64,000 bases of DNA, taken from positions 33,326-97,325 of the forward strand of contig CASTSB010000003.1 of NCBI GenBank assembly GCA_949451605.1, given 5' to 3'. Source of the stretch: an uncultured Bacilli bacterium. GTDB lineage: Bacteria; Bacillota_I; Bacilli_A; RF39; UBA660. Position numbers and translations under genes: made by a program. Of the stretch, positions 44,433 to 64,000 are shown piece by piece (position 1 is the stretch's first letter; each line of letters opens with the position of its first letter). The notes beneath the pieces were generated by a model. It was not told the DNA's origin. It ran no database searches and saw nothing but the letters and a program-made list of their open reading frames with translations.

Positions 44433-45599
44433 ATGTCAAAAAGAAAGTACAATAATATATTAATCTTAGCATTATTTGCATTTTATATAATTTATTATAA
44501 AATTTTTATTTCTGCAAGTAAATTAGAGTATAGTGAGTTTATTAATGTAGCAGTTATTGCGATCATATCTTTTATTGCAGTATTATTGCTTGGATATCGA
44601 AAAGATAGAATAAATGATACAAAAAAATCAATTTTAAAAACTGTTTTAACAGACATTGTTATATTTTTAATAGTATCTTATGCTTTAGGAACAGTAACTG
44701 GTTTTACTACTAATGAAAATAATTATGAATTATCAATGATTATTAAAAATATATTTGCTCCTATTTGCTATATTGGAGTAATAGAACTATTTAGATATGT
44801 AACTGTTAATGCAAATTCTGATAAAAAAATTACAGTTTATTTAATAACAGCAGTTATTATTCTACTAGAGCTTGCAATGAATTTAAATGGTGTACTAATG
44901 TACAATTTTGAAACTACATTTAGAGCTATTTCTATGATTGTATTACCAATCATTATCAAAAATGCAACTTTAAGTTATTTAGCAATATATGGAGGTTTAA
45001 AATCTACTATATTGTACAGACTAATACTAGATCTATATGCATATATTTTACCAGCTATACCAAATTTAGGAGATTACATAACTTCTGTTATTGGTGTTCT
45101 TTTACCTACAATGGTTTATATTCATTCATCAAGAATTGTAGATAACGCAAATAGTATCGAGATTCTTGATGCAGAAGATGACAAAAAATCAAAGAAAAAA
45201 ATAAATATTAGTGATATTATTGTAACAATAATAATTATTCTTTTAGTAGGTTTAATTTCAGGCTACTTTAAATTTGCCATCATTGGAGTAGGATCTGGAT
45301 CAATGTCACCAGAAATAGAAAAAGGTGATGCAGTAGTTTATAAAAAAATTAAAAATAAAGAAGAATTAAAAGTAAACGATATATTAGTTTTCCAAAGTGG
45401 TAATAAAATAGTAATCCACAGATTAGTTGAAATTAAAAATAGTGGTGGAAAAACTTATTATATTACTAAAGGTGATGCTAATAATGGAAGAGATGGATTA
45501 AATCTAACTTTAGAAAATATCAAAGGAAAGGTAATGTTTAAGATAAAATATTTAGCTTATCCAAACTTATTCTTAAAAGATTTAGTAGATAAGGAGTAA
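44433..45599 (+). CDS. SipW-type (S26B, ER/archaeal-type) signal peptidase I fused to a ~260-aa polytopic N-terminal domain
   Basis: C-terminal boxes GSGSMSPEIEKGDAVV (Ser), IVIHRLVEI (His) and ITKGDANNGRDG (Asp), preceded by at least six hydrophobic segments. Confidence 0.7.
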   Translation: MSKRKYNNILILALFAFYIIYYKIFISASKLEYSEFINVAVIAIISFIAVLLLGYRKDRINDTKKSILKTVLTDIVIFLIVSYALGTVTGFTTNENNYELSMIIKNIFAPICYIGVIELFRYVTVNANSDKKITVYLITAVIILLELAMNLNGVLMYNFETTFRAISMIVLPIIIKNATLSYLAIYGGLKSTILYRLILDLYAYILPAIPNLGDYITSVIGVLLPTMVYIHSSRIVDNANSIEILDAEDDKKSKKKINISDIIVTIIIILLVGLISGYFKFAIIGVGSGSMSPEIEKGDAVVYKKIKNKEELKVNDILVFQSGNKIVIHRLVEIKNSGGKTYYITKGDANNGRDGLNLTLENIKGKVMFKIKYLAYPNLFLKDLVDKE

Positions 45600-45603
45600 A
45601 AAA

Positions 45604-46512
45604 ATGAAAAGGGAATTAAAAATAGGGGCATTGTCTTTACTTTTAATAGCACTTATTGGAATATCTATTTATTTATATTCCATAGGCTACTTAAATTTTG
45701 TAATTATAACAGCAACTTTTTCTGTAATTAACTTAATAATTTTAATTAATGTTATTATATCTACTAGATCAGAAGAAAGTCTTTATAATAGTAAAGTTAA
45801 ACAAATATTAAGAACATATGATGCTATTTTAGTAAAGAGTAATAATCATCCAAAGATTGATGAAAAAAATATAATTATAGTTGAGACATTTGAAGACTTA
45901 GTTGATGCACAAATGGAATTAAGGAAACCTATATATTATCAACAACAAACTGAATCATGTTCATTTGTTCTTTTAGATAATACTGAAGCCTGTGTATTTA
46001 TATTAAAGAAAAACCCATCTGTTGTCTGTCCTTTAGAAATAACTTTAAATGAAATAGAAATAAGGAATAATAGTGAATCAAAAAAAGAAGATTTACCAGA
46101 TGAGCTATTACAAAATATAGAGAAAACTACTATTGTTAGAGTAGGCAAAGGTCAATATTTAAAAGTTTCTCCTTTAAGAAAAAAGAAAGAGAAAAAAGAA
46201 GATTTATCTAATGAAACAATGGACTCAACTATTAAAAGAGAAGAAGAGATTCAACAACCAGCCATGAAAGAGGAAAATACTTCTCCAACAATTCCGACTG
46301 TACAAGAAAATATAGAAATTAAAAATCAACAACCAATAGTAGAAGTACCAGTAGAAAAAACAAATGACATACCAGTCGTACATGAAGAAGAGGTAACTGA
46401 TAATACATTATATAATGCAGAGCCACAAATAATTAAGAGTATGCCAACTGATATGCATTTAAATGAGCAAAAACAAGAATCAATAAAAGAAATTGAAGTC
46501 CTTGATTTATAA
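45604..46512 (+). CDS. hypothetical 2-TM membrane protein with Glu/Gln/Pro-rich tail, co-transcribed with the SipW-like gene
   Basis: AAGGAG RBS. Start is 4 nt after the upstream stop. Two N-terminal TMs, a globular region of about 130 aa, then a low-complexity acidic tail. Confidence 0.5.
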   Translation: MKRELKIGALSLLLIALIGISIYLYSIGYLNFVIITATFSVINLIILINVIISTRSEESLYNSKVKQILRTYDAILVKSNNHPKIDEKNIIIVETFEDLVDAQMELRKPIYYQQQTESCSFVLLDNTEACVFILKKNPSVVCPLEITLNEIEIRNNSESKKEDLPDELLQNIEKTTIVRVGKGQYLKVSPLRKKKEKKEDLSNETMDSTIKREEEIQQPAMKEENTSPTIPTVQENIEIKNQQPIVEVPVEKTNDIPVVHEEEVTDNTLYNAEPQIIKSMPTDMHLNEQKQESIKEIEVLDL

Positions 46513-46515
46513 CAA

Positions 46516-46538
46516 AAATAGTCTTATGACTATTTTTT
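46516..46538 (+). terminator. intrinsic terminator after the sipW-like operon
   Basis: AAATAGTC-TTAT-GACTATTT followed by TTT. Confidence 0.55.
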
Positions 46539-46618
46539 ATTTTTCTAAATATTGATAGAAACTATATAATTTGTTATACTAAATTAATAGAGTAAAGATG
46601 AATGAAAGGGATTTAATT

Positions 46619-49135
46619 ATGGATAAAAGTACACTAGATAAGCTAATTACAAATAAAAATTTATCTATCTTAATAGTGATTTTTGTTATGGCAATAAGCT
46701 TTGGTTATGCTGCTTTTAATTCTGTATTAAATATAACAGGAACGTATGCAGATGTGCGTATAAAACAAGATATTAGAATAACTGGCATTAGAACTAATAG
46801 TGCAACAAGCAGTGGTTCATCAACTTATGAAGATTATAATAAAAGTAGTATTAAAATAGGTACAATTCTACCAAATAGTAATTCCACTATAACTTATGAA
46901 GTTGATATTACCAATCTTGGAAATACCGAAATGGGAATATATCAAATAAATAATCTTCCATCTAATTTAGAATATTCGCTTTCTGATTATGAAGAAGGTA
47001 CAAAGCTTTGTGTAGATACAAAATGCTCTTTAGGAGTAACAAAAACTATAAAAATAACAATTAAATACAAAAATAATGGATTTAATTCTACTACAACAAC
47101 GTATAATTTAAAATTAGATTTTGATTTTCAAAGATTTTATAATGTTACCTATAATACAAAAACTGGTGCAAATAAATCAGATAGTGCAATAGGAAAAGGC
47201 ACATATGTTTTAGATTTTTCAAAAGAAGAAGCAAAGCCAAATAGTGTATCATCTATAAAAATGGCAGGTTCAAATATTTCGAATTATTCTTATAATTCTA
47301 GTACAGGAATTTTATCTATCCCTAATGTTACAGGAGATATTCAAATAACTGCTAGTTATAAAGTTGACTGTTTAAAAGCTTCTCCTCGAGGTTCTGGAGA
47401 TTATTATAGCAATTCATATCTAGATTTACCAATAAAAAGAAAAGAAATTGAAGCTGTAACTTTTAATAATACCAAATTAGTACCTGAAGGATTATCTAGC
47501 TACGATGTTTCAGAGGATGGAAATGGAAGTATACTTGCATATTATCTTGATGAAGACAACAATGGTCTATATGAATTATACATAGGACAAGATGGTGGAG
47601 TAAAAGCTAATAAAAACTCTGAATGGCTATTTGCATATTTTAAGAATCTTAAAAATATTAACTTAAAATATTTAGATACAAGCGAAGTTACTAATATGTA
47701 TTATCTTTTTCTCCAATGTGAAAGTCTAACAACTTTAGATGTAAGTACATTAATTACTGATAATGTCACTAATATGGTAGGGATGTTTTCTACTTGTAAA
47801 AACTTAACTTCATTAGATTTAAGTAATTTTAATACTATTAATGTAAATAATATGAGCGAAATGTTTTATCAAGATTATAAATTATCTAATCTTAATGTTT
47901 CTTATTTTAATACAGAAAAGGTAACTCAAATAAGATTAATGTTTTCATATTGTTCAAGTTTAACATCTCTAGATATAACAAATTTTATTACAAAAAAAGT
48001 TAATAATATGGATTCAACATTTAAAAATTGTAGTAGCCTAGAATCTTTAGATTTAAGCAATTTTACAACTGAGAAAGTTTCATTTTTAGGAAATTTATTT
48101 TCATATTGTGAAAAGCTGAATAATTTGAATATAAGAAATGATTTTGTAAAATCCAATATAACAAATATTAAAGCAATGTTTAATAGCTGTAAAAGTTTAA
48201 CTACTCTTGATCTATCTCAATGGGATACAAGTAATGTAACAGATATGAGTAATTTATTTAATCATTGTGATAAACTTACCTCATTAAACTTTTATAATAT
48301 TAATACAAATAAAGTAACAAATATGAGTTCCTTTTTTAGTTATTGCAGTGCTTTACCAGAAAGTAATTTAGTTGGAATAGTAAGTAAATTTAATACAATT
48401 AATGTTACTGATATGTCTTATATGTTTCATTGGTGTACTCAATTAAACAATCTAGATTTATCACATTTCAATACTGAAAAGGTAACAACTATGTCTTATA
48501 TGTTTTTTGTCTGTTCTAACTTATCCACTTTAAATATTAGTAGTTTTAACACAAGTAATGTTACAAGTATGGCAGGAATGTTTTATAATTTTAGAAAAAT
48601 GGACACAATTAATCTTTCCCACTTTGATACATCTAAAGTAACATCGATGTATGATATGTTTGCCAATTCTAGTTACAAATCTTTAGATATTAGTAACTTT
48701 GATTTAAGTAGTTTAAAAAGTATGGGAGAAATGTTTGCTTACAATCGTTTATTAACTAGTATAAATATTAATGGAATAGATACTTCAAATGTTACAAATA
48801 TGAAAAGATTATTTCGAGAGTGCGAAAGTTTAGAAAATATAAACATAAGACATTTTAAAACTGCAAACGTTACAGATATGAGTGAAATGTTTTATAAATG
48901 TACTAATTTAAAAACCATCAATATTGCAAGTACAACTTTTGAATTTAAAAAAGAGTATGATGAAGCAACACAAACTACTAATTTTTTAGTAACTGTTACT
49001 AATATGTTTGCAGAGTGTCCAAATCTTCAAAAGTTATATATTTATGATATATTACAAATGGCTATTTTAAATCAAATATATCCAGGATTTACAAGTTTAC
49101 CTTTTGAACCTATCCAAGATGGAGAACCAAGTTAA
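46619..49135 (+). CDS. secreted BspA/DUF285-type leucine-rich-repeat protein with TasA-like SipW-class N-terminus
   Basis: N-terminus ...ILIVIFVMAISFGYAAFNSVLNITG. About 16-17 repeats of 25 aa (LDxSxFNTxxVTxMxxMFxxCxxL). An alternative ATG at 46598 is in frame. Confidence 0.7.
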   Translation: MDKSTLDKLITNKNLSILIVIFVMAISFGYAAFNSVLNITGTYADVRIKQDIRITGIRTNSATSSGSSTYEDYNKSSIKIGTILPNSNSTITYEVDITNLGNTEMGIYQINNLPSNLEYSLSDYEEGTKLCVDTKCSLGVTKTIKITIKYKNNGFNSTTTTYNLKLDFDFQRFYNVTYNTKTGANKSDSAIGKGTYVLDFSKEEAKPNSVSSIKMAGSNISNYSYNSSTGILSIPNVTGDIQITASYKVDCLKASPRGSGDYYSNSYLDLPIKRKEIEAVTFNNTKLVPEGLSSYDVSEDGNGSILAYYLDEDNNGLYELYIGQDGGVKANKNSEWLFAYFKNLKNINLKYLDTSEVTNMYYLFLQCESLTTLDVSTLITDNVTNMVGMFSTCKNLTSLDLSNFNTINVNNMSEMFYQDYKLSNLNVSYFNTEKVTQIRLMFSYCSSLTSLDITNFITKKVNNMDSTFKNCSSLESLDLSNFTTEKVSFLGNLFSYCEKLNNLNIRNDFVKSNITNIKAMFNSCKSLTTLDLSQWDTSNVTDMSNLFNHCDKLTSLNFYNINTNKVTNMSSFFSYCSALPESNLVGIVSKFNTINVTDMSYMFHWCTQLNNLDLSHFNTEKVTTMSYMFFVCSNLSTLNISSFNTSNVTSMAGMFYNFRKMDTINLSHFDTSKVTSMYDMFANSSYKSLDISNFDLSSLKSMGEMFAYNRLLTSININGIDTSNVTNMKRLFRECESLENINIRHFKTANVTDMSEMFYKCTNLKTINIASTTFEFKKEYDEATQTTNFLVTVTNMFAECPNLQKLYIYDILQMAILNQIYPGFTSLPFEPIQDGEPS
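47645..49040 (+). repeat. ~75-nt periodic coding repeat array (DUF285/BspA-type LRR)
   Basis: Recurring ...(T/N)NM(S/x)xMF..C..L..L(D/N)(L/I)S.F(N/D)T..V... units, counted as 16-17 by eye. Confidence 0.7.
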
Positions 49136-55102: not shown

Positions 55103-57949
55103 ATGAAGAGAAAAAGTAAATTGAAATATTTTAGTTTATTATTAGTAGTAATATTTATAGGTATTGGTTATGCATTTTTATCTACTAACTTAGAAATAAA
55201 TGGTATTTCTATTATGAAGAGAAGTGTTTGGGACTTACACTTTGAAAATATAGTGGATGATTATGAAAAAGCAGTTATTGATATTCCAGCTTCTATTAGT
55301 AGGGACAGGTTATCAGTAAATTTTGAAGTAACACTAAATAACCCAGGAGATGAATACTACTTTTATGTTGATGTAGTAAATGATGGAACAATCGATGTAA
55401 TGTTAAATAACTACTTGTTCTCGGGACTATCTACAGAACAAGAAAAACTAATTAGTACAACTCTAACTTATAATGATGGAGTAGCGGTTAATAAATATGA
55501 TTTACTAAAAGAGAATTCTTTTGACACTTTAAAGGTAAGTGTTAAGTTTAGAGAAGATATAGAAGTAAGTGATCTACCAACTACTAAGAGTGACTTTAAT
55601 TTATCACTTGAAGTAAACTTTGATCAAGCAGATTCAAATGCTAAAGAAAGAGAACATATAGCGGATGTCACACCTCCTAGAATTAAGTTTATTAAAGTAA
55701 ATGACAATTCAGGAAATGATGAGTGGAGTAAAGATATAAGGCTTCTAGTAAAGATCGTAGATGAATCAAAAATAAAAGAAGCCAAATATTGTATCACAAC
55801 ACCAGATAATGAGTGCGAACCAACAGAAGTCCCAGAAGAGTTACAAAACACATCATTTTACTTTACATTTCCAGAATCAGATACAGAACAAAGACTATGT
55901 GTAAAGGCAACAGATACAAACGATAACTCAAAAACAACCTGTACAACAGAAAGTTATCTAGTAGATGGAGAAGATCCAGTAATAAAAAATGTTAATCTAA
56001 CAAAAGAAAACAATTCAATTACAGTAGAAGTAGATGCAGAAGATAAACAATCAGGAATCTATATGTATTATTATTCAAAGGATTCAGGAGAAACATATAT
56101 ACCAAGCATCTATCCAAACTATACCTTTACTGGATTAGATAATGATGACTATTTAATAACAATGTATACAGAAGATGTAGCTGGAAACAAGTCTGCAGTA
56201 ACTGCCAAAAACTCAACAGTAAGAAGTGGTAATTTCTGTAAAAGTAATGGTCTAACTAATCTAAGTGACTGTCTATTAGCTCAAGAGACAAGAGATGCCA
56301 ATATTGTTTCTGCAAAATCAAAAATAGAGGCAAAAGAAACTCCTAACTTTAATGATGTTAGTCCTAAAATAACATATGGCGAAAAAGAAATGCCAAAAGT
56401 AAGCGTTTATAAAGCTTCTACATCCCAATCATTTTATTTAAGTGATGGCTCTAGCTATTCTTATAATTATTATTATGTAGGTACAGATTATCAACTTAAT
56501 ACCTCAACTGGACAATTTACTTTAAAAAATACAAAGCAAATTAAAGATTTTGGTGACTTAGACAATCAAAATAATACTTACTATATGTGCGGATCACAAT
56601 ATAGTAGTTCTTGTAGCACAATGTTTAAAATAATATCAATAGACTTTTTAGAAGAAACTAATACTGATTATAGTTTTTATACTACCAAAGTTTTAAAGTT
56701 TAATATTACAAAATATGATATAACATATAAAGAATTAAAATATGATTCAAAAGAGACTGGAATGTATTCAATAGAAGATGATTTAGGAACAAGCTATTAT
56801 TACCGTGGAGCAGTGGAAGGAAACATCGTTAAATTTGGTGACTTCTACTGGAAAATAACACGAATAAATGGTGATGGAACAATAAGAATGATATTCTATG
56901 GAACATCTCCAACTACAGATAGTCAAGTAAGTGTGCAATATTATACTCCTAATAATAGTTTTTATAGATATGATCCAACCTATATGGGAATTATGTTTAA
57001 TAACGAAGATTTTGGTGAAGAGTTAAAACCTACTGTATCAACATATACAGGGTTTGAAGACAAATCTACTACATCCTATGTATATTCTAAATCTTATACA
57101 TATAATAGGGAAAATTCAACATTTAGCTTAGACTTAACAGAGGGAAATTATATTAAAGGTATATGGAAAGATACTTACGAAGAAATACTTAATAATGGAT
57201 ATATCTACACATGTGCTACTACTTCAACAACAGCTTCTGCAAATACTTGTCGAAAAATAAAAAAAGTCACTAGATATGAATATAATGAAAAACAAAAGCA
57301 ACATAGAATGTATTATACAGATTATCTTACTTCATCAACATCTTACGAGAATGCTGTAAAAAATGTTAAAAAGTCACAGTTATTAATAAAACTAGATGAA
57401 TGGTTTGAAACAAACATAAAAACTAAAACCGATTCAAATTCTAATAGTTTGCTAGAATATTTATCTGATGGAATTTTCTGTAATGATAGAAGTTTTTATT
57501 CAGGAAATGGATATTATAGCTATGGTTCAATGATTTATTATAACGGTTATGGAAGGCTTAAAAATAATATGCCAAGTCTACTTTGTGTAAATCAAAATGA
57601 TAGATTTACCGAGTCTGATACAACTAATGGAAATGGTGCTTTAGAAAATAGAGTTGGTCTAATAACAGCTGATGAAGTAGAATTATCTGGAGTAAACAAC
57701 AATACTTCTTATAAAAACAATCATTATTTCTTAAAATGGGGAAGTAGATCATTTTGGACAATTACTCCATACTATGATAATGGCGACAATGAATATGTAT
57801 ATAAAGCATATTCTTCTGGAGGTATTTCCAGTGAGCATATAGGAAATAGCGGTCATATTCGCCCAGTAATAAACTTAAAAGCAAATACAAAGATTGTAAG
57901 TGGAGAAGGAACAACAGATTCACCATTTGAAATAACCTTAGGAAATTAG
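55103..57949 (+). CDS. large secreted protein: SipW-class N-terminus + conserved N-domain + Ig-like modules + shared C-terminal module
   Basis: ...LLLVVIFIGIGYAFLSTNLEING. N-domain VWDLHFENI / PGDEYYFYVDVVNDGTIDVML. C-module YYYRGAVEGNIVKFGDFYWKITRINGDGTIRMIFYG ... IRPVINLK ... SGEGTTDSPFEI. Confidence 0.6.
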   Translation: MKRKSKLKYFSLLLVVIFIGIGYAFLSTNLEINGISIMKRSVWDLHFENIVDDYEKAVIDIPASISRDRLSVNFEVTLNNPGDEYYFYVDVVNDGTIDVMLNNYLFSGLSTEQEKLISTTLTYNDGVAVNKYDLLKENSFDTLKVSVKFREDIEVSDLPTTKSDFNLSLEVNFDQADSNAKEREHIADVTPPRIKFIKVNDNSGNDEWSKDIRLLVKIVDESKIKEAKYCITTPDNECEPTEVPEELQNTSFYFTFPESDTEQRLCVKATDTNDNSKTTCTTESYLVDGEDPVIKNVNLTKENNSITVEVDAEDKQSGIYMYYYSKDSGETYIPSIYPNYTFTGLDNDDYLITMYTEDVAGNKSAVTAKNSTVRSGNFCKSNGLTNLSDCLLAQETRDANIVSAKSKIEAKETPNFNDVSPKITYGEKEMPKVSVYKASTSQSFYLSDGSSYSYNYYYVGTDYQLNTSTGQFTLKNTKQIKDFGDLDNQNNTYYMCGSQYSSSCSTMFKIISIDFLEETNTDYSFYTTKVLKFNITKYDITYKELKYDSKETGMYSIEDDLGTSYYYRGAVEGNIVKFGDFYWKITRINGDGTIRMIFYGTSPTTDSQVSVQYYTPNNSFYRYDPTYMGIMFNNEDFGEELKPTVSTYTGFEDKSTTSYVYSKSYTYNRENSTFSLDLTEGNYIKGIWKDTYEEILNNGYIYTCATTSTTASANTCRKIKKVTRYEYNEKQKQHRMYYTDYLTSSTSYENAVKNVKKSQLLIKLDEWFETNIKTKTDSNSNSLLEYLSDGIFCNDRSFYSGNGYYSYGSMIYYNGYGRLKNNMPSLLCVNQNDRFTESDTTNGNGALENRVGLITADEVELSGVNNNTSYKNNHYFLKWGSRSFWTITPYYDNGDNEYVYKAYSSGGISSEHIGNSGHIRPVINLKANTKIVSGEGTTDSPFEITLGN

Positions 57950-57970
57950 AAGAGCAATCTTCTTTTTCTT
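57948..57970 (+). terminator. intrinsic terminator (short stem)
   Basis: AGAAGA-GCAA-TCTTCT followed by TTTT. Confidence 0.4.
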
Positions 57971-58025
57971 TTATTTACGAAATATAATAAAAGTGGTAAA
58001 ATAACTACTCAATGAGGCGGTAGTT

Positions 58026-59039
58026 ATGAAAGAAAATCCTACAATAAAAGAAATAATAGATAGAGTTGAAATAAGTGCAACGGATTTTGAAAGAAATAAT
58101 TCAGAATTAAAAAGAAAATATTTAATATGGAATATAGAATCATTTAATATTTTAGCATCTAAAGTAAGTAGTTTTGTAGGTACTTTCGGAACAGGATATC
58201 CGTTTTATGCCTTAGATGAAAATTTAGAAGGTAAATTACCAGTAATAGTAGAGCAAATAAGATACAATAGGCAGCTTATAAAAGATGGAGAGCCTTATCA
58301 AAAGTCTATTTGGTTATGTAAATCATGTTTAAGAGAAAATTCATCAACCATGCCAGATTTAAAACAAGTTTGCAAGCCTTGTCCAAATATCCCATCAACT
58401 TTAAAGCCTAGAAAAATAATTAATAGATTACCAGATATAGATATGTGGTTAGTATGTAAAGATGGAGAAATAAATCAAGCTGCTGAACAATTAAGATATT
58501 TTTTACAAAGATATGGAATGCAAACATCAGATGTTGATCCAGCATCATCTATTGATCAAGTCTATGAAATTACCAAAATGCTAAAAAATGGTATTTTACC
58601 AGAGATATTTTTACCAATAGATGCTCATATTGTAGAGCAAAGTGAGCTTGATAATTTAATAAAAAGAGTTCCAGGTGCATTAATAACTGCTAGTAGTTAT
58701 GGAATAAAACCATATATACCTATTAATCCATTATCTTATCGAAAAACATGGCAACATGATGATGAAGCATATAATTTTGTTTGTGACTTTCTATCTACAT
58801 TTAAATCATTTAATTTTCCTAGTGAATTAGAGTCAGTACTACAAGAAAGTAGAAGTCAAATTGCTAGTCTTTATTCTCCAGAGGAATTATTCCAAATCTT
58901 TTTAAATGCTACCACAGAATCTAACTTTCGAAGACATCAATCTATAGAATTAGAAGAATTATTCTTAAAAAGAATGAGAAGTTGGCAGCCAAAAGAAAAA
59001 TCTAAAGTTAAAACAAAAAACTTTGAAATAGATAGGTAA
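58026..59039 (+). CDS. hypothetical cytosolic protein with CxxC-x18-CxxC zinc-ribbon and nucleotidyltransferase-like acidic motifs
   Basis: CKSCLRENSSTMPDLKQVCKPCPN, then RLPDIDMWLV (hDhDh) and LPIDAHIV (third acid). No TM or signal peptide. The ORF itself is solid; the function is speculative. Confidence 0.5.
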   Translation: MKENPTIKEIIDRVEISATDFERNNSELKRKYLIWNIESFNILASKVSSFVGTFGTGYPFYALDENLEGKLPVIVEQIRYNRQLIKDGEPYQKSIWLCKSCLRENSSTMPDLKQVCKPCPNIPSTLKPRKIINRLPDIDMWLVCKDGEINQAAEQLRYFLQRYGMQTSDVDPASSIDQVYEITKMLKNGILPEIFLPIDAHIVEQSELDNLIKRVPGALITASSYGIKPYIPINPLSYRKTWQHDDEAYNFVCDFLSTFKSFNFPSELESVLQESRSQIASLYSPEELFQIFLNATTESNFRRHQSIELEELFLKRMRSWQPKEKSKVKTKNFEIDR

Positions 59040-59068
59040 ATAATAAATTAAATAAGAAAGGAAAAATT

Positions 59069-59965
59069 ATGGCAAAAATAGACTTACATATTCATACTAC
59101 TATGTCGGATGGTAGTTTAACTCCTAAAGAAGTAATAGATGAGGCTTATAGAAATAAGGTAAATACAATTTCAATTGCAGATCATGATACAATCTCAGCT
59201 TATTATACAGAAGAATTATTTAATTATGCAAAACTTAAAGATATTAATTTAATTCCAGGTGTAGAGATTTCTACTAAATTAGATAAAATAGGTATTCATG
59301 TTTTAGGCTATAATTTTGATATACAAAATCAAAATTTAATTAAAAAATTAGAAAAACTTAGAAATGCTCGTCATGATTATCTATATAATGTTTCTGATAA
59401 ATTAAATAATCTTGGTTATAAAATTGATATAGATGAATTAGATAAAATAGAAGCCGTCACTAAGGCTCATATTGCTATTAATGTTATAAATAATAAAGAA
59501 AATGAGCGAACATTAATTAAAGAGTTTGGCCATATTCCAAACAAAGGCGAATTTATAGAAACTATTATGAATGAAAATTGCAAAGCTTATGTAAAAAAAG
59601 AAACAATAACGCCTAAAGAAGCAAGTGACCTTATTAAGCAAGCTGGTGGAATAGTTGTGTTGGCCCATCCAGTTGCTTATAAATATGAAGATAATTTGAA
59701 TGAAGATAAAATAATAAATATCATAAAAGATATGGAAATTAGTGGAATAGAATCAGATTATATTTATGTTGATAGAAATAACAATATTATTAATGAGATT
59801 TCTAAATGGAGAGAATTAGCAAAAAATAATGATTTATTTACAACAATAGGTTCAGATTTTCATAATAAAGATTGTATAAGGCCAGAAATTGGATTTAAAA
59901 ATTATGAATTAGAAATAGAAGAAAAAAGGGAAAAAGAAATTATCAAAAAAATAACTAAAATATAA
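59069..59965 (+). CDS. PHP domain phosphoesterase (TrpH/YciV-like)
   Basis: IDLHIHTTMSDGSLTPKEVIDEA...ISIADHDT...GIHVLGY...VLAHP...GSDFH. Confidence 0.8.
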   Translation: MAKIDLHIHTTMSDGSLTPKEVIDEAYRNKVNTISIADHDTISAYYTEELFNYAKLKDINLIPGVEISTKLDKIGIHVLGYNFDIQNQNLIKKLEKLRNARHDYLYNVSDKLNNLGYKIDIDELDKIEAVTKAHIAINVINNKENERTLIKEFGHIPNKGEFIETIMNENCKAYVKKETITPKEASDLIKQAGGIVVLAHPVAYKYEDNLNEDKIINIIKDMEISGIESDYIYVDRNNNIINEISKWRELAKNNDLFTTIGSDFHNKDCIRPEIGFKNYELEIEEKREKEIIKKITKI

Positions 59966-59992
59966 AATTTACAGCTTTTAAATGTAAAATAC

Positions 59993-60022
59993 AGAAGAAA
60001 AGAATACCTTTCTTCTTTTTTA
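59993..60022 (+). terminator. intrinsic terminator after the PHP gene
   Basis: AGAAGAAA-(8 nt)-TTTCTTCT followed by TTTTT. Confidence 0.55.
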
Positions 60023-60046
60023 TTTATAAAAACCTCAATCTCAATG

Positions 60047-60076
60047 TTGACTATTAGGTAAAAAAAGAAGTATAAT
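60047..60076 (+). promoter_or_regulatory. sigma-A promoter upstream of the 60138 paralogue cluster
   Basis: TTGACT (60047-60052), 18-nt spacer, TATAAT (60071-60076). Confidence 0.5.
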
Positions 60077-60137
60077 TTAAAGTAGGATAGAAGTGTATAA
60101 GATGGGATTACTGTCTAAAGATATATAGGAGAGTGCT

Positions 60138-61598
60138 ATGTTAAGATCTGAAAGAAAAGTAAAAAATATTATATTAGTAACGCTATTTTCGTTCTTCTTT
60201 ATAGGTGTAGGCTATGCATTAATTTCATCTAACCTAAGTATTAGAGGTACACTTGAAGTTAATAAGGCTACATGGGATATTCATCTTGCTAATGTTGTAA
60301 TGAATGAGAACAATACTGTAAGTGCAACACCTACTTTAGTGAATAATGATACAGGAATAAATTATTCTCTAAAATTAGCTGCTCCTGGAGATTTCTATTC
60401 ATTTACCGTAGACGTTGTAAATAGTGGAACTTTAAATGCTATGTTGACAGATATAAATGCTGCAGGATTAACTGCAGATCAAGCTAATGTTATTAATTAC
60501 ACAGTTACATATGAAAATGGAATTTTACCACAAGAAAAAGATTCACTTCAAAAAGATTCTTCAAAAACTTTAGTAGTGACAGTAAGTTATAAAGAGGATA
60601 TCACCGCTGATCAATTATTAGATGCAGATATTCCACTAAACTTAAGATTAGAGATATCATATGCCCAAGATGATGGGACAAGTAAAAAAGTACCAGAGAC
60701 TTTAAACGATGTTATGGCAAGAAATGCAGTTTTAGATGATCAAGCAAGTGAATTTGTTACTGCCCAGACAGGAATCGACTTTAGTGCTCATTATTCAGAA
60801 ACAAATGGAAATGGTATATATGAATATTCCAATAGTAAAAATCAAGAATATCCAATTTATTATTACAGAGGAAATATTCAAAATAATAATGTTATCTTTA
60901 ATAATTTCTGTTGGAAAATAGTAAGAACAACAGATACTGGAGGAGTAAAGTTATTATACAATGGTCTTTTATCTTCTGATAATAAATGTGACAATACAGG
61001 AAATGCAACAAATTTAAGCTCTTATTCCCAATTTATGCCAAACAATGAATTAAGGTACATAGGATATACTTATGAAGTTGATGGTGTTGAGAAAGATTCT
61101 TTAGTCAAAAATCTGATTGAAACATGGTATGAAAATAATATGAGTACTGTATCAGATAAATTAGAAGATACTATTTACTGTAATAGTCCAACAGGTGGAA
61201 ATAAAAATATTGCTAATAAAGATACTTTATTTACATGTAATAACAAAAATGAAAGTTATACAGTAAGTAATAATTTGGGTAATCAGAAATTAAAATATAA
61301 AATTGGATTATTAACAGTAAAAGAAAGTGTTGCAGCAGGTGGAAGATATATGCCGGGAACACCACAACCTGAAACTTATTTATCTAATGCAACGGCATAT
61401 TGGACTATGTCTCCTCGTGATAATGAACCAGCTACAGAAGGAAATATGTCAACAATACATTATATAGAAGCAAATGGTTCTGGTGGGGCAGGATCTAGTA
61501 ATAATAGTCATAAGCTTAGACCAGTAATCTCACTTAAAAATGGCCTTAAATTTACAAAAGGTACAGGAGAAATAAATAATCCATATTTTATTGGATAA
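60138..61598 (+). CDS. secreted protein: SipW-class N-terminus + conserved N-domain + shared C-terminal module
   Basis: ...LFSFFFIGVGYALISSNLSIRG. TWDIHLANV / PGDFYSFTVDVVNSGTLNAML. YYYRGNIQNNNVIFNNFCWKIVRTTDTGGVKLLYNG ... LRPVISLK ... KGTGEINNPYFIG. Confidence 0.6.
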   Translation: MLRSERKVKNIILVTLFSFFFIGVGYALISSNLSIRGTLEVNKATWDIHLANVVMNENNTVSATPTLVNNDTGINYSLKLAAPGDFYSFTVDVVNSGTLNAMLTDINAAGLTADQANVINYTVTYENGILPQEKDSLQKDSSKTLVVTVSYKEDITADQLLDADIPLNLRLEISYAQDDGTSKKVPETLNDVMARNAVLDDQASEFVTAQTGIDFSAHYSETNGNGIYEYSNSKNQEYPIYYYRGNIQNNNVIFNNFCWKIVRTTDTGGVKLLYNGLLSSDNKCDNTGNATNLSSYSQFMPNNELRYIGYTYEVDGVEKDSLVKNLIETWYENNMSTVSDKLEDTIYCNSPTGGNKNIANKDTLFTCNNKNESYTVSNNLGNQKLKYKIGLLTVKESVAAGGRYMPGTPQPETYLSNATAYWTMSPRDNEPATEGNMSTIHYIEANGSGGAGSSNNSHKLRPVISLKNGLKFTKGTGEINNPYFIG

Positions 61599-61622
61599 TA
61601 TAATAATGAAAGGAACAGTAAC

Positions 61623-62927
61623 ATGAAAATAGGTAATGTAGAAATAAAGAAAAATTATATTATAGTCTTGAGCGTAATTATACTAGTAGTTTCACTAGCG
61701 TTAGGTTATAGCCTTTTATATAGTGATCTAAACTATCAAGCAAATGTTACTGTTAAAAACTATAAATGTAATCAGGAAAATCTTTATGAAAGATTAACTT
61801 GTTTATCAACTTATGATAATACTCCAAGTAAAAATGTTAAAAGTTATTCTGGAATAGATTATAATGATATATCATCAGATACTAATGGCAAAGGATTATA
61901 TACTCTATCAGAAACTTTGGATACAGCAAATCCAATTCGTTATTTTAGAGGAAACGTAAAAAATAATAATCTCAAATTCGCATCTAGTTGTTGGAAAATA
62001 ATTAGAACTACTTCAACAGGTGGGATTAAATTAATATATAATGGAAAGCCAAATGATAAAGGAATTTGCGAAGAAAATGGAGTAAGTATTGGAAGCTACG
62101 CTTTTAATGATGAAAATCTATCAGTTTCAGATACTTCTTATATGTATGGAAAAACATATGAAATAAAAGAAAAAATTATGGAAAATACTGAAATTGTTTA
62201 TGGTAATACTGTAAATTGGAATAATGAGACAAACACTTATACAATTTCTGATGAAGTAATTAGTTCATCTTGGTCAAATGATCATAATAATTTAAAGAAT
62301 AAGTATACATGCTTTAATAATGAAACGACTTGTGAAAAAGTAAATTATATTTCTGAATCTAATGATCCTGCTAAAGCTATTTATATTGAATTAGCATTAG
62401 GAGAAACAAAAGAAAATATTTATGAAAATATTTCAACAAATGAAAATTCATCATCTATCAAAACTATACTTGATAAATGGTATGAAGATAATATAAAGGC
62501 ATTTGAAAATAATTTAGAAGATACCTTATATTGTAATGATAGAACATCGCTTAATGGAAATGCAAAAAAAGAAATGATATTTGCTTGTCCAAATAAAGCA
62601 GATTCTTTCAGTACAAAAGAAGAAAATGGAAATGCAAAATTAACTTATCCAATTGCTTTATTAACTAAAGAAGAAATTATATTATCAGGCTTAAATACAG
62701 AAAAGGAAAATACTAATTATCTTACAACTAATTCAAACATTTTAACTATGACACCAGCAAAGATAAATATAAATGAATCAAAAATGGTTATTATATCAAG
62801 TATGAATAAAATTGATTCATTAAAATCTACTGAAAAAGCTGAAATAAAACCTGTTATATCATTAAAAAAAGATACTTTAATAGTAAGTGGTACAGGAACA
62901 TTAGATGATCCTTATATAATTGGATAG
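61623..62927 (+). CDS. secreted protein: SipW-class N-terminus directly joined to the shared C-terminal module
   Basis: ...LVVSLALGYSLLYSDLNYQ. RYFRGNVKNNNLKFASSCWKIIRTTSTGGIKLIYNG ... IKPVISLK ... SGTGTLDDPYIIG. Lacks the ~150-aa N-domain. Confidence 0.6.
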   Translation: MKIGNVEIKKNYIIVLSVIILVVSLALGYSLLYSDLNYQANVTVKNYKCNQENLYERLTCLSTYDNTPSKNVKSYSGIDYNDISSDTNGKGLYTLSETLDTANPIRYFRGNVKNNNLKFASSCWKIIRTTSTGGIKLIYNGKPNDKGICEENGVSIGSYAFNDENLSVSDTSYMYGKTYEIKEKIMENTEIVYGNTVNWNNETNTYTISDEVISSSWSNDHNNLKNKYTCFNNETTCEKVNYISESNDPAKAIYIELALGETKENIYENISTNENSSSIKTILDKWYEDNIKAFENNLEDTLYCNDRTSLNGNAKKEMIFACPNKADSFSTKEENGNAKLTYPIALLTKEEIILSGLNTEKENTNYLTTNSNILTMTPAKININESKMVIISSMNKIDSLKSTEKAEIKPVISLKKDTLIVSGTGTLDDPYIIG

Positions 62928-62948
62928 TGAAGGGAAGAGTGAAATTAT

Positions 62949-64000
62949 ATGATTCATAGAAAAAGAAATAGAAAAATAAAAGTTCCAAAATATCTTTATA
63001 TAGTTTCGCTTGGTCTTTTATTATTCTTAAGTGTTGGATATTCCATGATTAATTCAACTTTAGGTATTGAAGGAAATGTAGTAGCATCAAAAAATAATTG
63101 GGATATTCATTTTGATAATATTACTTATGCAGATGATAGTATAAAACCAGAAGTCTCTCCATCAATAGTAAATGAAACTGAATTAAATTATAATGTTAGT
63201 TTAGAAAGACCTGGTGATAAACTTTTATTTACATTTGATATTGTAAATAATGGTAGTCTAGATGGAATTATAGATAAAATAGATTTTACGTCATTAACTG
63301 ATGATCAAAAGAAATATATTAATTATGAAATAACTTATGAAAATGGTAAACAAATCCAATTAAAAGATATTTTAAGAAAAGAAGAAATAAAAAAAGTTAA
63401 AGTTTTACTAGAATATAAGGATAAGCGTTCTAATGATGAATATCCTGAAGAAAATATCGAATTACCTTTAAAGATATTTATAAATTATATTCAAGCTAAA
63501 GAAGAAGTTTATAAATTAGATATTAATCACAACAATATAGTAAATTCTTATTCTGTTATTAATACAAAAGAAGCATTAAAAATACCTGATGAAATAGCAG
63601 AATCTGATAATGCTATTATATGCAATAATAACTCAATACCAACCATTAGTGATACTAATGAATTAATTATTACTAATATAAAACAAAATACTTCTTGTAG
63701 TATTGTAAAAACACTAAAAGATGCCATAGATCTTATAGAAAATGAAAATAATTATATTACTCTTATAAAAAGTCAAACAATTAATGAAGCTATTACAATT
63801 CCAAAAGATAAAAGTGTGATAATTAATCTTTCTAATAAAGAAATAAACTTTAATGGCAATGAAACTTTAATAACAAATGAAGGAAATCTAATAATAAATG
63901 CTTCATCATCTTCTATTGTTAATACAAGTGCTGCTTTTATAAATAATAAAGAAGAAGCTAAACTTACTATTAATAATGGTATTTATAATAAGTTAAATAG
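62949..64000 (+). CDS. secreted protein (3' end outside window): SipW-class N-terminus + conserved N-domain + beta-helix-like region
   Basis: Not in the supplied ORF track because it has no stop within the window. Read by hand from ATG 62949: MIHRKRNRKIKVPKYLYIVSLGLLLFLSVGYSMINSTLGIEG...NWDIHFDNI...PGDKLLFTFDIVNNGSLDGII...YEITYENG..., then Asn/Ile/Thr-rich short repeats (VIINLSNKEINFNGNETLITNEGNLIINASSSSIVN). No stop through nt 63998. Confidence 0.6.
   Translation, partial: MIHRKRNRKIKVPKYLYIVSLGLLLFLSVGYSMINSTLGIEGNVVASKNNWDIHFDNITYADDSIKPEVSPSIVNETELNYNVSLERPGDKLLFTFDIVNNGSLDGIIDKIDFTSLTDDQKKYINYEITYENGKQIQLKDILRKEEIKKVKVLLEYKDKRSNDEYPEENIELPLKIFINYIQAKEEVYKLDINHNNIVNSYSVINTKEALKIPDEIAESDNAIICNNNSIPTISDTNELIITNIKQNTSCSIVKTLKDAIDLIENENNYITLIKSQTINEAITIPKDKSVIINLSNKEINFNGNETLITNEGNLIINASSSSIVNTSAAFINNKEEAKLTINNGIYNKLN

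What the first reader, a model, noticed from the sequence alone, without database searches (positions are those of the whole stretch)
55103..62927. Three paralogues share a conserved Cys/Trp-containing C-terminal module ending in RPVIxLK...G(T/E)GT..PY/F
Seen: colinear blocks occur in 55103, 60138 and 61623. (1) YYYRGAVEGNIVKFGDFYWKITRINGDGTIRMIFYG / YYYRGNIQNNNVIFNNFCWKIVRTTDTGGVKLLYNG / RYFRGNVKNNNLKFASSCWKIIRTTSTGGIKLIYNG. (2) LDEWFETN / IETWYENN / LDKWYEDN. (3) IFCNDRS / IYCNSPT / LYCNDRT. (4) VGLITADEVELSG / IGLLTVKESVAAGG / IALLTKEEIILSG. (5) FWTITP / YWTMSP / ILTMTP. (6) IRPVINLK..SGEGTTDSPFEI / LRPVISLK..KGTGEINNPYFI / IKPVISLK..SGTGTLDDPYII. The regions between blocks vary greatly in length, with large insertions in 55103. 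Genes 60138, 61623 and 62949 are separated by only about 20 nt and look like one operon. Inference: this is a diversifying, tandemly duplicated surface or adhesin-like module. Blocks 4-6 resemble what I recall of the DUF6273-type surface-protein domain (xWLRSP...RPAxxL), but I cannot confirm that from memory.
Basis: partly seen in the sequence, partly recalled or inferred. Interest (0 to 1): 0.65.

Follow-up and report, generated by a model that had tools for sequence, protein, structure and literature searches.

The report
Divergent lectin-like module on secreted fibre proteins
Three neighbouring genes of an uncultured mouse-gut bacterium end in the same disulfide-braced, probably ligand-binding domain, a far-diverged and enlarged relative of the uncharacterised DUF6273 (C-type-lectin-like) domain, and they sit in a gene cluster with a dedicated SipW-type signal peptidase, which suggests display on TasA-like surface fibres.

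Summary
ORFs A (55103-57949), B (60138-61598) and C (61623-62927) share a colinear C-terminal module (BLASTP E 7e-24 to 3e-30, 28-36% identity).

The module belongs to a very large family that Pfam barely covers: 11,734 clusters at 50% identity in a library-wide HMM search, mostly from uncultured gut Bacilli. It is a remote, enlarged relative of DUF6273. The window proteins score below Pfam's cut-off (18.1 and 15.3 bits against 23.5; C has no hit), exactly over blocks 4-6. Eight of 56 relatives hit at E<=0.01, and at least two reach the cut-off. The confident AlphaFold model (pLDDT 91.9) finds no solved structure but preferentially finds phage DUF6273 models.

- A, B, C, D and ORF 46598 all carry a 'G-Y-A/S' signal-peptide end.
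- A, B and D share a second, N-terminal beta-sandwich module.
- Two multi-TM SipW/archaeal-type signal peptidases flank them, one beside a DUF5305 gene.

That gene set matches TasA/Bsa/Taf donor-strand fibre loci. My reading is a modular surface-fibre or adhesin system in which this module is the binding payload. Fibre assembly and the ligand are inferred, not shown. I found no sign of ongoing hypervariation or of a diversity-generating retroelement.

The parts
55103..57949 (+). Gene A (948 aa). Signal sequence ending G22-Y23-A24; N-terminal beta-sandwich carrier module (aa ~25-185); Ig-like and unknown middle region (aa 186-531); C-terminal module.
56696..57934 (+). Module copy in A: coreN aa 532-635, diverged 117-aa insert, coreC aa 753-944. 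It lacks the first Cys pair.
   Evidence: HMM mapping. Sub-threshold DUF6273 hit of 18.1 bits over blocks 4-6. Cys co-loss.
60047..60076 (+). Best sigma-70-like promoter match in the region (TTGACT-18-TATAAT, 11 of 12), 62 nt upstream of B.
   Evidence: This is a consensus match only; the number of such sites in the region is not above chance.
60138..61598 (+). Gene B (486 aa). Signal sequence ending G25-Y26-A27; N-terminal beta-sandwich carrier module; C-terminal module without the insert.
   Evidence: AlphaFold model with pLDDT 84.1.
60723..61592 (+). Module copy in B: coreN aa 196-313, coreC aa 318-485.
   Evidence: Sub-threshold DUF6273 hit of 15.3 bits.
61623..62927 (+). Gene C (434 aa). 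Signal sequence ending G28-Y29-S30; only the first ~20 mature residues of the carrier module (a putative donor strand); then the module.
   Evidence: AlphaFold model with pLDDT 91.9.
61806..62921 (+). Module copy in C: coreN aa 62-180, beta-rich insert 188-262, coreC 271-433.
62949..64000 (+). Gene D (490 aa in full; it runs off the window). Same signal sequence (G30-Y31-S32) and carrier module, but a different payload that looks like a repetitive beta-helix. A terminator-like hairpin follows 7 nt after its stop, and 45 nt further on comes a 388-aa multi-TM SipW-type peptidase, E (L001:12869-14035, outside the window).
44433..45599 (+). In-window paralogue (E2) of the multi-TM, archaeal/SipW-type signal peptidase I. 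It keeps the SGSMSP, HR and GDANN motifs.
   Evidence: phmmer against E: 3e-42 for the TM part and 7e-37 for the peptidase part. Pfam Peptidase_S26 26.6 bits, above the 22.9 cut-off.
45604..46512 (+). DUF5305 membrane protein. It corresponds to TafG, the proposed helper of the dedicated signal peptidase in archaeal Taf fimbria loci.
   Evidence: Pfam DUF5305 45.6 bits, above the 29 cut-off. Literature.
46598..49135 (+). Fifth protein in the window with a G-Y-A leader (845 aa). It has a diverged carrier-like N-terminus (21% identical to B's when aligned) and a DUF285 leucine-rich-repeat payload.
   Evidence: (DUF285 255 bits)

Best explanation
A, B and C are secreted surface proteins of an uncultured, low-GC (about 25%) mouse-gut Bacilli bacterium. 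Each ends in one copy of a 290-410-aa extracellular module. The module is a far-diverged, enlarged relative of the DUF6273 domain. DUF6273 is reported as C-type-lectin-like and is known from phage receptor-binding proteins.

The module has three parts:
- a strongly conserved N-terminal half (blocks 1-3), which the Pfam DUF6273 model did not match in any protein scanned here;
- an optional beta-rich insert;
- a DUF6273-like C-terminal half (blocks 4-6).
It has three conserved Cys pairs, and its most variable stretch lies between blocks 5 and 6.

Proposed mechanism:
1. The precursors are exported by Sec.
2. Their unusual signal peptides, ending in G-Y-A/S, are cut by dedicated multi-TM SipW/archaeal-type signal peptidases. 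These are E2 (44433-45599, beside a DUF5305 gene) and E (just downstream of D).
3. The N-terminal beta-sandwich of A, B and D acts as a TasA/BsaA/Taf-like carrier, which may polymerise by donor-strand exchange.
4. C keeps only the leader and the first strand. It could therefore cap or nucleate such a fibre, as TapA does for TasA.
5. The C-terminal module is the ligand-binding payload. Other payloads (the beta-helix-like region of D, the DUF285 repeats of ORF 46598) use the same carrier.

Shown: paralogy, family membership, remote DUF6273 relationship, fold confidence, peptidase identity and conserved gene neighbourhood.
Inferred: cleavage site, fibre assembly, capping role of C, adhesin function and ligand.
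For: - Paralogy.
- Family size: 519 close homologues and 11,734 clusters at 50% identity at E<=1e-3, of which 4,505 at E<=1e-30. They come almost entirely from uncultured gut Bacilli/Mollicutes-labelled genomes, with 3-7 loci per genome among the 80 loci kept.
- DUF6273 link: sub-threshold hits in A and B over blocks 4-6. Relatives P0082 and P0109 pass the cut-off (28.9 and 27.4 bits). Eight of 56 family members hit at E<=0.01, best 7.6e-10. Seven of the top 19 Foldseek matches in the viral library are DUF6273 proteins, with probability up to 1.00. DUF6273 is described as C-type-lectin-like in PMC10743442.
- Extracellular, folded unit: AlphaFold pLDDT 91.9. Cys pairs 123/149, 230/237 and 304/322 are each either both present or both absent, except one sequence at 304/322. 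The module sits at the extreme C-terminus, with a median tail of 2 aa. It occurs as whole-module tandem arrays, for example P0158 with a vWA-type motif and 5 modules.
- Portable payload: relatives carry it behind classic SipW-type leaders with Peptidase_M73, behind type IV prepilin leaders (N_methyl), or behind Sec signals with Ig-like tails.
- Peptidase: E matches TIGR02228 at 85 bits, above the 51.85 cut-off. E2 is in the window.
- Conserved neighbourhood: related genomes have a standalone ~180-aa carrier protein, the TM-fused peptidase, a DUF5305 protein and module-bearing proteins side by side.
- Same gene set in characterised donor-strand fibre loci: TasA (PMC9674648), TapA (PMC10151520), the bsa operon (PMC11580942), Taf fimbriae (PMC11821415, PMC12337348).
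- Donor strand: the putative strand (B aa 32-42) is the only long low-confidence stretch of the B model, as expected if it is unpaired in the monomer. Leader-plus-strand regions of C-type relatives are recognisably similar to the carrier N-terminus (E about 1e-5).
Against: - The window proteins fail Pfam's DUF6273 threshold, and C gives no hit at all.
- No Foldseek match reaches E<=1e-3 in either library. Matches to solved C-type-lectin-like folds are weak (8q4e probability 0.15; 6xfq 0.21).
- Homology of the carrier module to TasA/camelysin is not established. There is no Pfam hit in the window proteins. The standalone relative scores 19.1 bits, below the 22.5 cut-off. hhalign gives 5-82% probability with an unconvincing alignment. 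The TasA fibre 8aur scores only E 0.086.
- The NCBIfam scans run on A-D returned no TIGR04088 SipW-cognate signal hit.
- No standalone major-subunit gene lies in this window.
- A terminator-like hairpin separates D from E.
- Fibre assembly, cleavage and binding are untested. Transcription evidence is only low-depth contigs from metatranscriptome-labelled runs.
Confidence: 0.6

Rival explanations
1. The proteins are monomeric surface or secreted proteins. The N-terminal hydrophobic segment is an ordinary cleaved signal peptide or an uncleaved membrane anchor, and the beta-sandwich is only a stalk. No fibre forms. The module still binds a ligand.
For: Homology of the carrier to TasA is unproven. 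There is no standalone subunit gene in the window. Foldseek finds only generic Ig-like sandwiches. AlphaFold draws the leader as one long helix.
Against: Dedicated multi-TM SipW-type peptidases and a DUF5305 gene are conserved next to these genes in several genomes. Standalone ~180-aa carrier proteins are common in relatives. G and Y of the leader end are invariant, and L33 and G37 of the following strand are nearly invariant or invariant. C-type proteins keep that strand without the sandwich.
Confidence: 0.27
2. The module is an enzyme, for example a glycan- or protein-modifying domain built on a formylglycine-generating-enzyme/C-type-lectin-like scaffold, rather than a binding domain.
For: Block 1 and several polar residues are extremely conserved: R109, N115, D300 and N337 are invariant, and E299 and R307 nearly so. 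That degree of conservation is unusual for a pure adhesin. There is no solved homologue.
Against: No match to any enzyme family in Pfam, NCBIfam or the PDB. The nearest relatives are phage receptor-binding-type DUF6273 domains. Tandem arrays of up to about 11 modules, and fusion to pilins, are typical of binding modules.
Confidence: 0.06
3. The genes are prophage-derived receptor-binding proteins, or targets of a diversity-generating retroelement, as many DUF6273 proteins are.
For: DUF6273 is best known from phage receptor-binding proteins and retroelement targets. The closest structural matches are phage proteins.
Against: No phage genes flank the cluster. Neighbours include GH25, YlmH, ASCH, UDG, LytB and NrdD genes, and this order is shared with related genomes. 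The proteins have Sec-type leaders. There is no template/variable repeat pair anywhere in the 64 kb, and I did not look for a reverse-transcriptase gene. The locus is >=99.6% identical across independent samples.
Confidence: 0.03

Closest known systems
Pfam DUF6273 (PF19789), a C-type-lectin-like domain of phage receptor-binding proteins ('tentaclins', targets of diversity-generating retroelements) and the N-terminal domain of the Thomasclavelia ramosa IgA protease ThomasA
   Same: Blocks 4-6 align to profile positions about 66-171 of 172 (hydrophobic strand + acidic helix, 'W(T/L).SP', 'RP.I.L'). Relatives of the window proteins pass the Pfam threshold. The predicted fold preferentially matches DUF6273 models. 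Both are extracellular and occur in gut Firmicutes and their phages.
   Different: The window proteins score below threshold. The module is about twice as long. It has a highly conserved N-terminal half (YYYRG..NNN..F..FCWKI.RTT.TGG.KL.YNG) that the Pfam model did not match in any protein scanned here, an optional 75-aa beta-rich insert, and three Cys pairs. It is chromosomal, not retroelement-linked, and attached to SipW-type or pilin leaders rather than to phage tail proteins.
SipW-dependent TasA/BsaA fibre operons (B. subtilis tapA-sipW-tasA; C. perfringens sipW-bsaA-bsaB-bsaC)
   Same: There is a dedicated archaeal/ER-type signal peptidase I next to several secreted beta-sandwich proteins. 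One partner carries a binding domain (BsaC has a vWA domain). An N-terminal strand that is disordered in the monomer is the donor in TasA and BsaA. TapA supplies a strand without being a fibre subunit, which is what I propose for C.
   Different: The carrier module gives no significant TasA/Peptidase_M73 match. The leader ends in G-Y-A/S rather than the (G)GT(F/W)A-(Y/A)F motif. The peptidase is fused to a polytopic membrane domain of about 255 aa. Most subunits here carry large payloads. Assembly has not been shown.
Archaeal Tat-fimbriae/bundling pili loci (TafA/E pilins, TafD signal peptidase, TafG DUF5305)
   Same: The gene set is the same: a multi-TM dedicated signal peptidase, a DUF5305 membrane protein, 150-200-aa pilins, and larger variable subunits.
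   Different: This is a bacterial, Sec-type (no twin-arginine motif) system. There is no detectable sequence similarity between the pilins. In E the peptidase domain is C-terminal to the TM block, whereas in TafD it is N-terminal.
DUF1566 / Legionella Lcl C-terminal domain and other bacterial C-type-lectin-like adhesin domains
   Same: There is a weak local structural match (8q4e) and a similar motif logic: a hydrophobic strand followed by an acidic helix, an aromatic-x-S(T/P) strand, and a terminal R-x-(V/I) strand.
   Different: Foldseek probability is only 0.15 over 90 columns. There is no sequence match.

Membership tests
Pfam DUF6273 (PF19789) | Match to the Pfam HMM at or above the gathering score (23.5 bits) | tested here: not met
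   Full-length A, B and C give no hit at E<=1 to 5. Isolated C-terminal halves: A 18.1 bits (E 2.6e-3, profile 80-171); B 15.3 bits (E 0.019, profile 66-171); C none. The family consensus scores 19.2 bits.
Pfam DUF6273 (PF19789) | Homology by transitivity: clear homologues of the window proteins pass the threshold over the same blocks | tested here: met
   P0082 scores 28.9 bits and P0109 27.4 bits, over residues that correspond to blocks 5-6. Eight of 56 aligned family members hit at E<=0.01, best 7.6e-10. These proteins match C at E about 1e-51 to 1e-53.
Pfam DUF6273 (PF19789) | Same fold as DUF6273 proteins | tested here: inconclusive
   Foldseek against BFVD: 7 of the top 19 matches are annotated as DUF6273 (probabilities 1.00, 0.94 and 0.91). 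But the best E is 1.6e-3 to 5e-3, and TM-scores are 0.19-0.30 normalised to the query and up to 0.48 normalised to the target. No solved DUF6273 structure was found.
C-type-lectin-like fold | Significant structural match to a solved C-type-lectin-like domain | tested here: inconclusive
   PDB Foldseek gives no match at E<=1e-3. There are only local hits to Lcl-CTD 8q4e (probability 0.15) and snaclec 6xfq (0.21). The fold assignment for DUF6273 comes from PMC10743442.
SipW-dependent secretion/fibre system (TasA, Bsa, Taf class) | A dedicated archaeal/ER-type signal peptidase I encoded beside the substrates | tested here: met
   E (L001:12869-14035, 69 nt after D): TIGR02228 85 bits, above the 51.85 cut-off; the SipW model gives 70 bits. 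E2 in the window at 44433-45599: Peptidase_S26 26.6 bits, above 22.9. The arrangement is conserved in L005, L006, L007, L010, L066 and L070.
SipW-dependent secretion/fibre system (TasA, Bsa, Taf class) | Accessory DUF5305 protein and small (150-200 aa) pilin-like subunits in the locus | tested here: met
   DUF5305: window 45604-46512 at 45.6 bits, above the 29 cut-off, and L010:3437-4048 at 38 bits. Standalone 178-226-aa carrier proteins lie next to the peptidase in L010, L066 and L070, and many ~180-aa homologues exist. None is in this window.
SipW-dependent secretion/fibre system (TasA, Bsa, Taf class) | SipW-cognate signal peptide (NCBIfam TIGR04088) | tested here: not met
   The NCBIfam scans run on A, B, C and D gave no TIGR04088 hit. 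The relative P0026, which carries the same module, scores 22.4 bits, above the 19 cut-off. The window leaders end in an invariant G-Y followed by A or S. This fits the -3/-1 rule, but it is a different motif.
SipW-dependent secretion/fibre system (TasA, Bsa, Taf class) | Polymerisation by donor-strand exchange | not testable with these tools
   Only indirect evidence. The N-terminal strand is low-confidence in the monomer model. The strand is conserved in C-type proteins that lack the sandwich. No multimer prediction was available.
TasA/camelysin (Pfam Peptidase_M73, PF12389) | HMM or structural match of the N-terminal carrier module | tested here: not met
   There is no hit in A, B or D. The standalone relative L010:1638-2174 scores 19.1 bits, below the 22.5 cut-off. 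hhalign against the M73-type domains of relatives gives 5% and 82% probability. The PDB profile search finds nothing. The TasA fibre 8aur scores E 0.086.
Target of a diversity-generating retroelement | A template repeat near-identical to a variable region, plus a reverse transcriptase | tested here: not met
   There are no long near-identical repeats in the window. The only repeats between paralogues are 63-78% identical and lie in the conserved blocks. There is no population hypervariation. I did not look for a reverse-transcriptase gene, and the rest of the genome was not examined.
Type IV pilin | Prepilin N-terminal methylation motif (G-F-T-L-x-E) | tested here: not met
   The motif is absent from A-D. 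It is present in relatives that carry the same module: P0043 N_methyl 26.5 bits, above the 21.2 cut-off; also P0027, P0054 and P0089.

The most novel reading that the evidence does not exclude
Gut Bacilli possess a 'plug-in' adhesive fibre. A TasA/Taf-like donor-strand-exchange filament is processed by a polytopic SipW-type peptidase with a DUF5305 partner. Individual subunits carry interchangeable binding payloads: this DUF6273-like module, a beta-helix-like region, or DUF285 repeats. Strand-only proteins such as C act as tip or nucleator adhesins. The same payload module is shared with type IV pilins. It would then be a previously undescribed major adhesin domain family (more than 10,000 sequence clusters) of the mammalian gut microbiota.
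Probability: 0.3. Interest if true: 0.7.

Novelty: new variant of a known kind. Interest (0 to 1): 0.5.

Why it matters
The module defines a very large protein family (11,734 clusters at 50% identity) that current domain libraries mostly miss. It is concentrated in uncultured gut Bacilli, which carry many paralogues per genome.

If it is the binding payload of SipW-dependent fibres and of type IV pili, it would be a main determinant of how these poorly known commensals attach to mucus, host cells or other microbes. It would also extend the TasA/Bsa/Taf donor-strand filament class to payload-bearing subunits.

Practically, the three sub-HMMs and the G-Y-A/S leader motif give annotators a way to recognise these proteins. 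The high-confidence model with no solved homologue marks a worthwhile target for structure determination.

Tried and rejected
- Direct Pfam and NCBIfam scans of the full-length proteins found nothing useful.
- A PDB sequence search with C found nothing.
- PDB fold searches with both models gave no significant match. The top hits for C (avidins) have TM-scores of 0.06 and are noise.
- I tried to prove that the carrier module is a TasA/camelysin homologue, using a PDB profile search, hhalign against the M73-type domains of relatives and Pfam on a standalone relative. All results were sub-threshold, so I claim only analogy and a shared gene neighbourhood.
- My guess that A contains a second copy of the beta-rich insert upstream of block 1 was not supported. 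The insert HMM does not hit A at all.
- The retroelement reading is rejected: no template/variable repeats and no population hypervariation.
- The prophage reading is rejected on gene context.
- dN/dS between paralogues was not attempted. At 28-36% amino-acid identity, synonymous sites are saturated. Between strains there are only 0-6 substitutions per gene, which is too few.
- A PADLOC scan of the two genes between A and B (337-aa unknown protein, PHP-domain protein) gave nothing meaningful.
- The word-indexed protein search with the carrier module was insensitive, with 6 and 36 hits.
- The metatranscriptome-labelled runs gave only low-depth contigs, so expression is suggested but not shown.

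Full report
**1. The observation**

The window is AT-rich (GC about 25%).

Pairwise BLASTP shows a colinear C-terminal similarity far beyond chance:
- B vs C: 34% identity, E 7e-24 and 4e-23.
- A vs C: 28% over 415 columns, E 3e-30.
- A vs B: E 9e-12, plus block 1 at E 3e-07.

All six quoted blocks are present. B-C and C-D are separated by 24 and 21 nt, each with a Shine-Dalgarno-like run.

**2. Anatomy of the module**

An alignment of C with 55 relatives (A1) gives these invariant residues: Y93, Y107, R109, G110, N115, W124, G141, W286, D300, C304, N337, G423, G425 and P430 (C numbering).

Three Cys pairs behave as units:
- C123/C149 are both Cys in 55 of 56 sequences. The only exception is window protein A, which lost both.
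- C230/C237 are both present in 51 sequences and both absent in 5. The 5 lack the insert, as B does.
- C304/C322 are both Cys in 55 of 56.

Sub-HMMs divide the module into three parts:
- coreN (blocks 1 and 'GYMY');
- an optional beta-rich insert of about 75 aa;
- coreC (blocks 2-6).

| Protein | coreN | insert | coreC |
|---|---|---|---|
| B | 196-313 | none | 318-485 |
| C | 62-180 | 188-262 | 271-433 |
| A | 532-635 | 117 aa, not recognised by the insert HMM | 753-944 |

Among 120 close homologues, 81 are coreN-insert-coreC, 21 lack the insert, 7 have two inserts and 8 have two whole modules. The module is almost always at the extreme C-terminus, with a median tail of 2 aa.

The best-conserved stretch is block 1 (C aa 101-140). 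The most variable is the stretch between blocks 5 and 6 (C aa 381-410).

**3. What family it is**

Full-length A, B and C hit nothing relevant in Pfam or NCBIfam, and C hits nothing in PDB sequences.

A word-indexed search found 519 homologues of C. Some carry precomputed Pfam hits to DUF6273, Peptidase_M73, N_methyl or Flg_new_2.

Evidence on the DUF6273 link:
- Rescanning relatives showed that their DUF6273 hits cover only the last 55 residues or so, that is blocks 5-6 (P0082 28.9 bits, P0109 27.4 bits; cut-off 23.5).
- Eight of 56 aligned members hit DUF6273 at E<=0.01, best 7.6e-10.
- When the C-terminal halves of the window proteins are scanned alone, A gives 18.1 bits (profile 80-171) and B 15.3 bits (profile 66-171), exactly over blocks 4-6. 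C gives nothing. The family consensus gives 19.2 bits.

The module is a remote relative of DUF6273, but by Pfam's own criterion the window proteins are not members. No DUF6273 hit obtained here covered the conserved N-terminal half.

**4. Structure**

AlphaFold2 with alignment A1 gives a confident model of C (mean pLDDT 91.9, pTM 0.84). B is modelled at pLDDT 84.1.

Foldseek against the PDB gives no match at E<=1e-3. The top hits are noise (TM 0.06). There are only weak local matches to two C-type-lectin-like structures: Lcl C-terminal domain 8q4e (probability 0.15) and a snake C-type lectin, 6xfq (0.21).

Against predicted viral structures there is again nothing at E<=1e-3. However, 7 of the top 19 matches are annotated 'DUF6273 domain-containing protein' of gut phages, with probabilities up to 1.00 (A0A8S5PL26, 351 columns, query-normalised TM 0.30; A0A8S5SNB0, target-normalised TM 0.48).

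I conclude that the module has a DUF6273-type core that has been substantially enlarged. The evidence from fold comparison is suggestive but not decisive.

**5. Size and distribution of the family**

A library-wide HMM search with A1 finds 11,734 clusters at 50% identity at E<=1e-3, 7,497 at E<=1e-10 and 4,505 at E<=1e-30. The A1 profile also includes N-terminal leader-domain columns and some C-terminal tail columns, so part of the weakest class may not be module hits.

Some members are giant proteins with tandem whole modules. P0158 (2,129 aa) has a von Willebrand A-type motif (read by eye, not scanned) followed by five modules.

In species-representative genomes, at least 591 stretches matched. 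Nearly all are in uncultured 'Bacilli', 'Mollicutes', 'Tenericutes' or 'Erysipelotrichaceae' genomes from human, mouse, ruminant and other guts, with 3-7 loci per genome among the 80 loci kept. The best identity to C is only 38-39%, so the source species itself is not in that set.

The window's DNA is found in mouse gut metagenomes.

**6.

(a) A, B and D (62949 to beyond the window; 490 aa in full) share a second module. It covers the N-terminal 180 aa or so (A-B 36% identity, E 4e-33; B-D 37%, E 4e-33). In the model it is a nine-strand beta-sandwich.

(b) A, B, C, D and ORF 46598-49135 all begin with a basic stretch, then a hydrophobic stretch, and then an invariant G-Y followed by A or S. 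This fits the -3/-1 rule for type I signal peptidase cleavage.

(c) C and its orthologue-like relatives keep only this leader and the next 20 residues or so ('L.I.....V.V'), then go straight into the module.

(d) Extending the locus on public contigs that encode identical proteins shows D followed by a 388-aa protein, E. E has an N-terminal polytopic membrane block and a C-terminal archaeal/ER-type signal peptidase I domain (TIGR02228 85 bits, above the 51.85 cut-off; the SipW model gives 70 bits).

(e) A paralogue, E2, lies inside the window at 44433-45599 (phmmer 3e-42 and 7e-37 against the two parts of E; Pfam S26 26.6 bits). It is followed by a DUF5305 protein (45604-46512; 45.6 bits) and by ORF 46598, a G-Y-A-leader protein with DUF285 leucine-rich repeats (255 bits).

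(f) Related genomes conserve the set: a standalone 178-226-aa carrier protein, the TM-fused peptidase, a DUF5305 protein, a C-type protein, an A-type protein (912 aa) or a D-type protein. Two of them (L006, L007) share the downstream UDG and LytB genes with the window locus. Many ~180-aa standalone carrier homologues exist.

**7. Mechanism**

This gene set matches characterised donor-strand-exchange filament loci, which combine a dedicated SipW-type peptidase, a DUF5305 partner, small beta-sandwich subunits and larger variable subunits:
- B. subtilis TasA. Its N-terminal strand inserts into the next subunit (PMC9674648), and TapA supplies a complementing strand (PMC10151520).
- The C. perfringens sipW-bsaA-bsaB-bsaC operon. 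BsaA polymerises through an N-terminal loop that is disordered in the monomer, and BsaC carries a vWA domain (PMC11580942).
- Archaeal Taf fimbriae. These have a multi-TM signal peptidase TafD, the DUF5305 protein TafG, 150-200-aa pilins and variable minor subunits (PMC11821415, PMC12337348).

I therefore propose the following:
1. A-D are exported and cut after G-Y-A/S by E or E2.
2. The beta-sandwich is a fibre-forming or fibre-joining carrier.
3. The C-terminal module is a binding payload.
4. C has a strand but no sandwich, so it can only donate. It would cap or nucleate a fibre.

Two observations are consistent with this. The putative donor strand of B (aa 32-42) is the only long stretch with pLDDT below 50 in its model. 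And relatives attach the same module to classic SipW leaders with camelysin-like domains, or to type IV prepilin leaders, which means to other fibre-forming scaffolds.

These steps are inferences. The carrier's homology to TasA/camelysin could not be established. TIGR04088 does not recognise the window leaders. A terminator-like hairpin lies between D and E. This window holds no standalone major subunit.

**8. Is it 'diversifying'?**

The paralogues are old (28-36% identity).

At DNA level they match only in the conserved blocks, at 63-78% (families D3, D6 and D14). No near-identical repeat pair that could serve as the template and variable regions of a retroelement exists in the 64 kb.

Four independent metagenome contigs carry the locus at 99.6-100% identity, with 0-6 substitutions per gene, no more than in flanking housekeeping genes.

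The family is thus diversified by duplication, by loop divergence (between blocks 5 and 6) and by gain or loss of the insert. It is not visibly hypervariable now.

Contigs from metatranscriptome-labelled mouse-gut runs cover parts of A, B, C and D, and one spans the C-D junction (62768-62950). This suggests expression and co-transcription, but depth is low and DNA carry-over cannot be excluded.

**9. Verdict**

It is best filed as a new, enlarged variant of the DUF6273 (C-type-lectin-like) binding domain. It is used as a payload in a SipW/DUF5305-type secretion or fibre system of uncultured gut Bacilli.

Confidence is high for 'secreted, DUF6273-related, probably ligand-binding module'. It is moderate for 'displayed on donor-strand fibres', and low for any particular ligand.

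Interest is moderate. The parts are of known kinds, but the family is very large and mostly missed by Pfam, and the modular carrier-plus-payload arrangement, including strand-only proteins, did not turn up in the literature I searched.

Noticed in passing
window 44433-49135: A second SipW-type cluster lies in the same window. It has a multi-TM S26 peptidase (E2), a DUF5305 protein, and an 845-aa G-Y-A-leader protein with about nine 26-aa DUF285 leucine-rich repeats (78-nt DNA period, repeat families D1/D2).
   Followed up: partly
L001:12869-14035 (69 nt downstream of gene D, outside the window): The SipW-type peptidase domain is fused to an N-terminal polytopic membrane block of about 255 aa that has no Pfam match. 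The same fusion (about 380 aa) is conserved in six related genomes. One related locus (L067) instead has a short, 170-aa SipW.
   Followed up: partly
window 58026-59965: A 337-aa protein with no family match and a CxxC...CxxC motif, and a PHP-domain protein, sit between A and B. They are absent from the equivalent clusters of related genomes. In one strain (L002) the gene call for the 337-aa gene is shortened to 273 aa.
   Followed up: partly
window 56846-56901 (A, block 1): A is the only one of 56 aligned family members that has lost both Cys of the first conserved pair (FYW instead of FCW, with the partner deleted). This co-loss supports the idea that the two residues form a disulfide.
   Followed up: yes
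window 52733-52948: A 71-aa ORF matches only the C-terminal 70 residues or so of PADLOC candidate defence proteins PDC-S23 and PDC-S05 (E 3e-28). It contains a Fic-like 'HPFVDRNKR' motif and is probably a gene remnant.
   Followed up: no
window 8937-12728: A 1,263-aa ORF has internal DNA repeats spaced about 230 nt apart (repeat families D4/D10 at 11220-11683). This suggests tandem Ig-like domains in another large surface protein.
   Followed up: no
P0158, P0159, P0160: Giant relatives (2,129-4,905 aa) carry 5 to about 11 whole modules in tandem. P0158 begins with a von Willebrand A-type motif (read by eye), reminiscent of BsaC in the C. perfringens bsa operon.
   Followed up: partly
L001:12806-12829: A terminator-like hairpin (8 pairs plus a T-run) lies directly after D and before the peptidase gene E. 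E may therefore be transcribed separately or by read-through.
   Followed up: no
window 55485-56212: One metatranscriptome-labelled run (X24) carries a strain variant with a dense cluster of substitutions in the middle, non-module region of A. The differences listed over the modules of A were fewer; the table was truncated.
   Followed up: no
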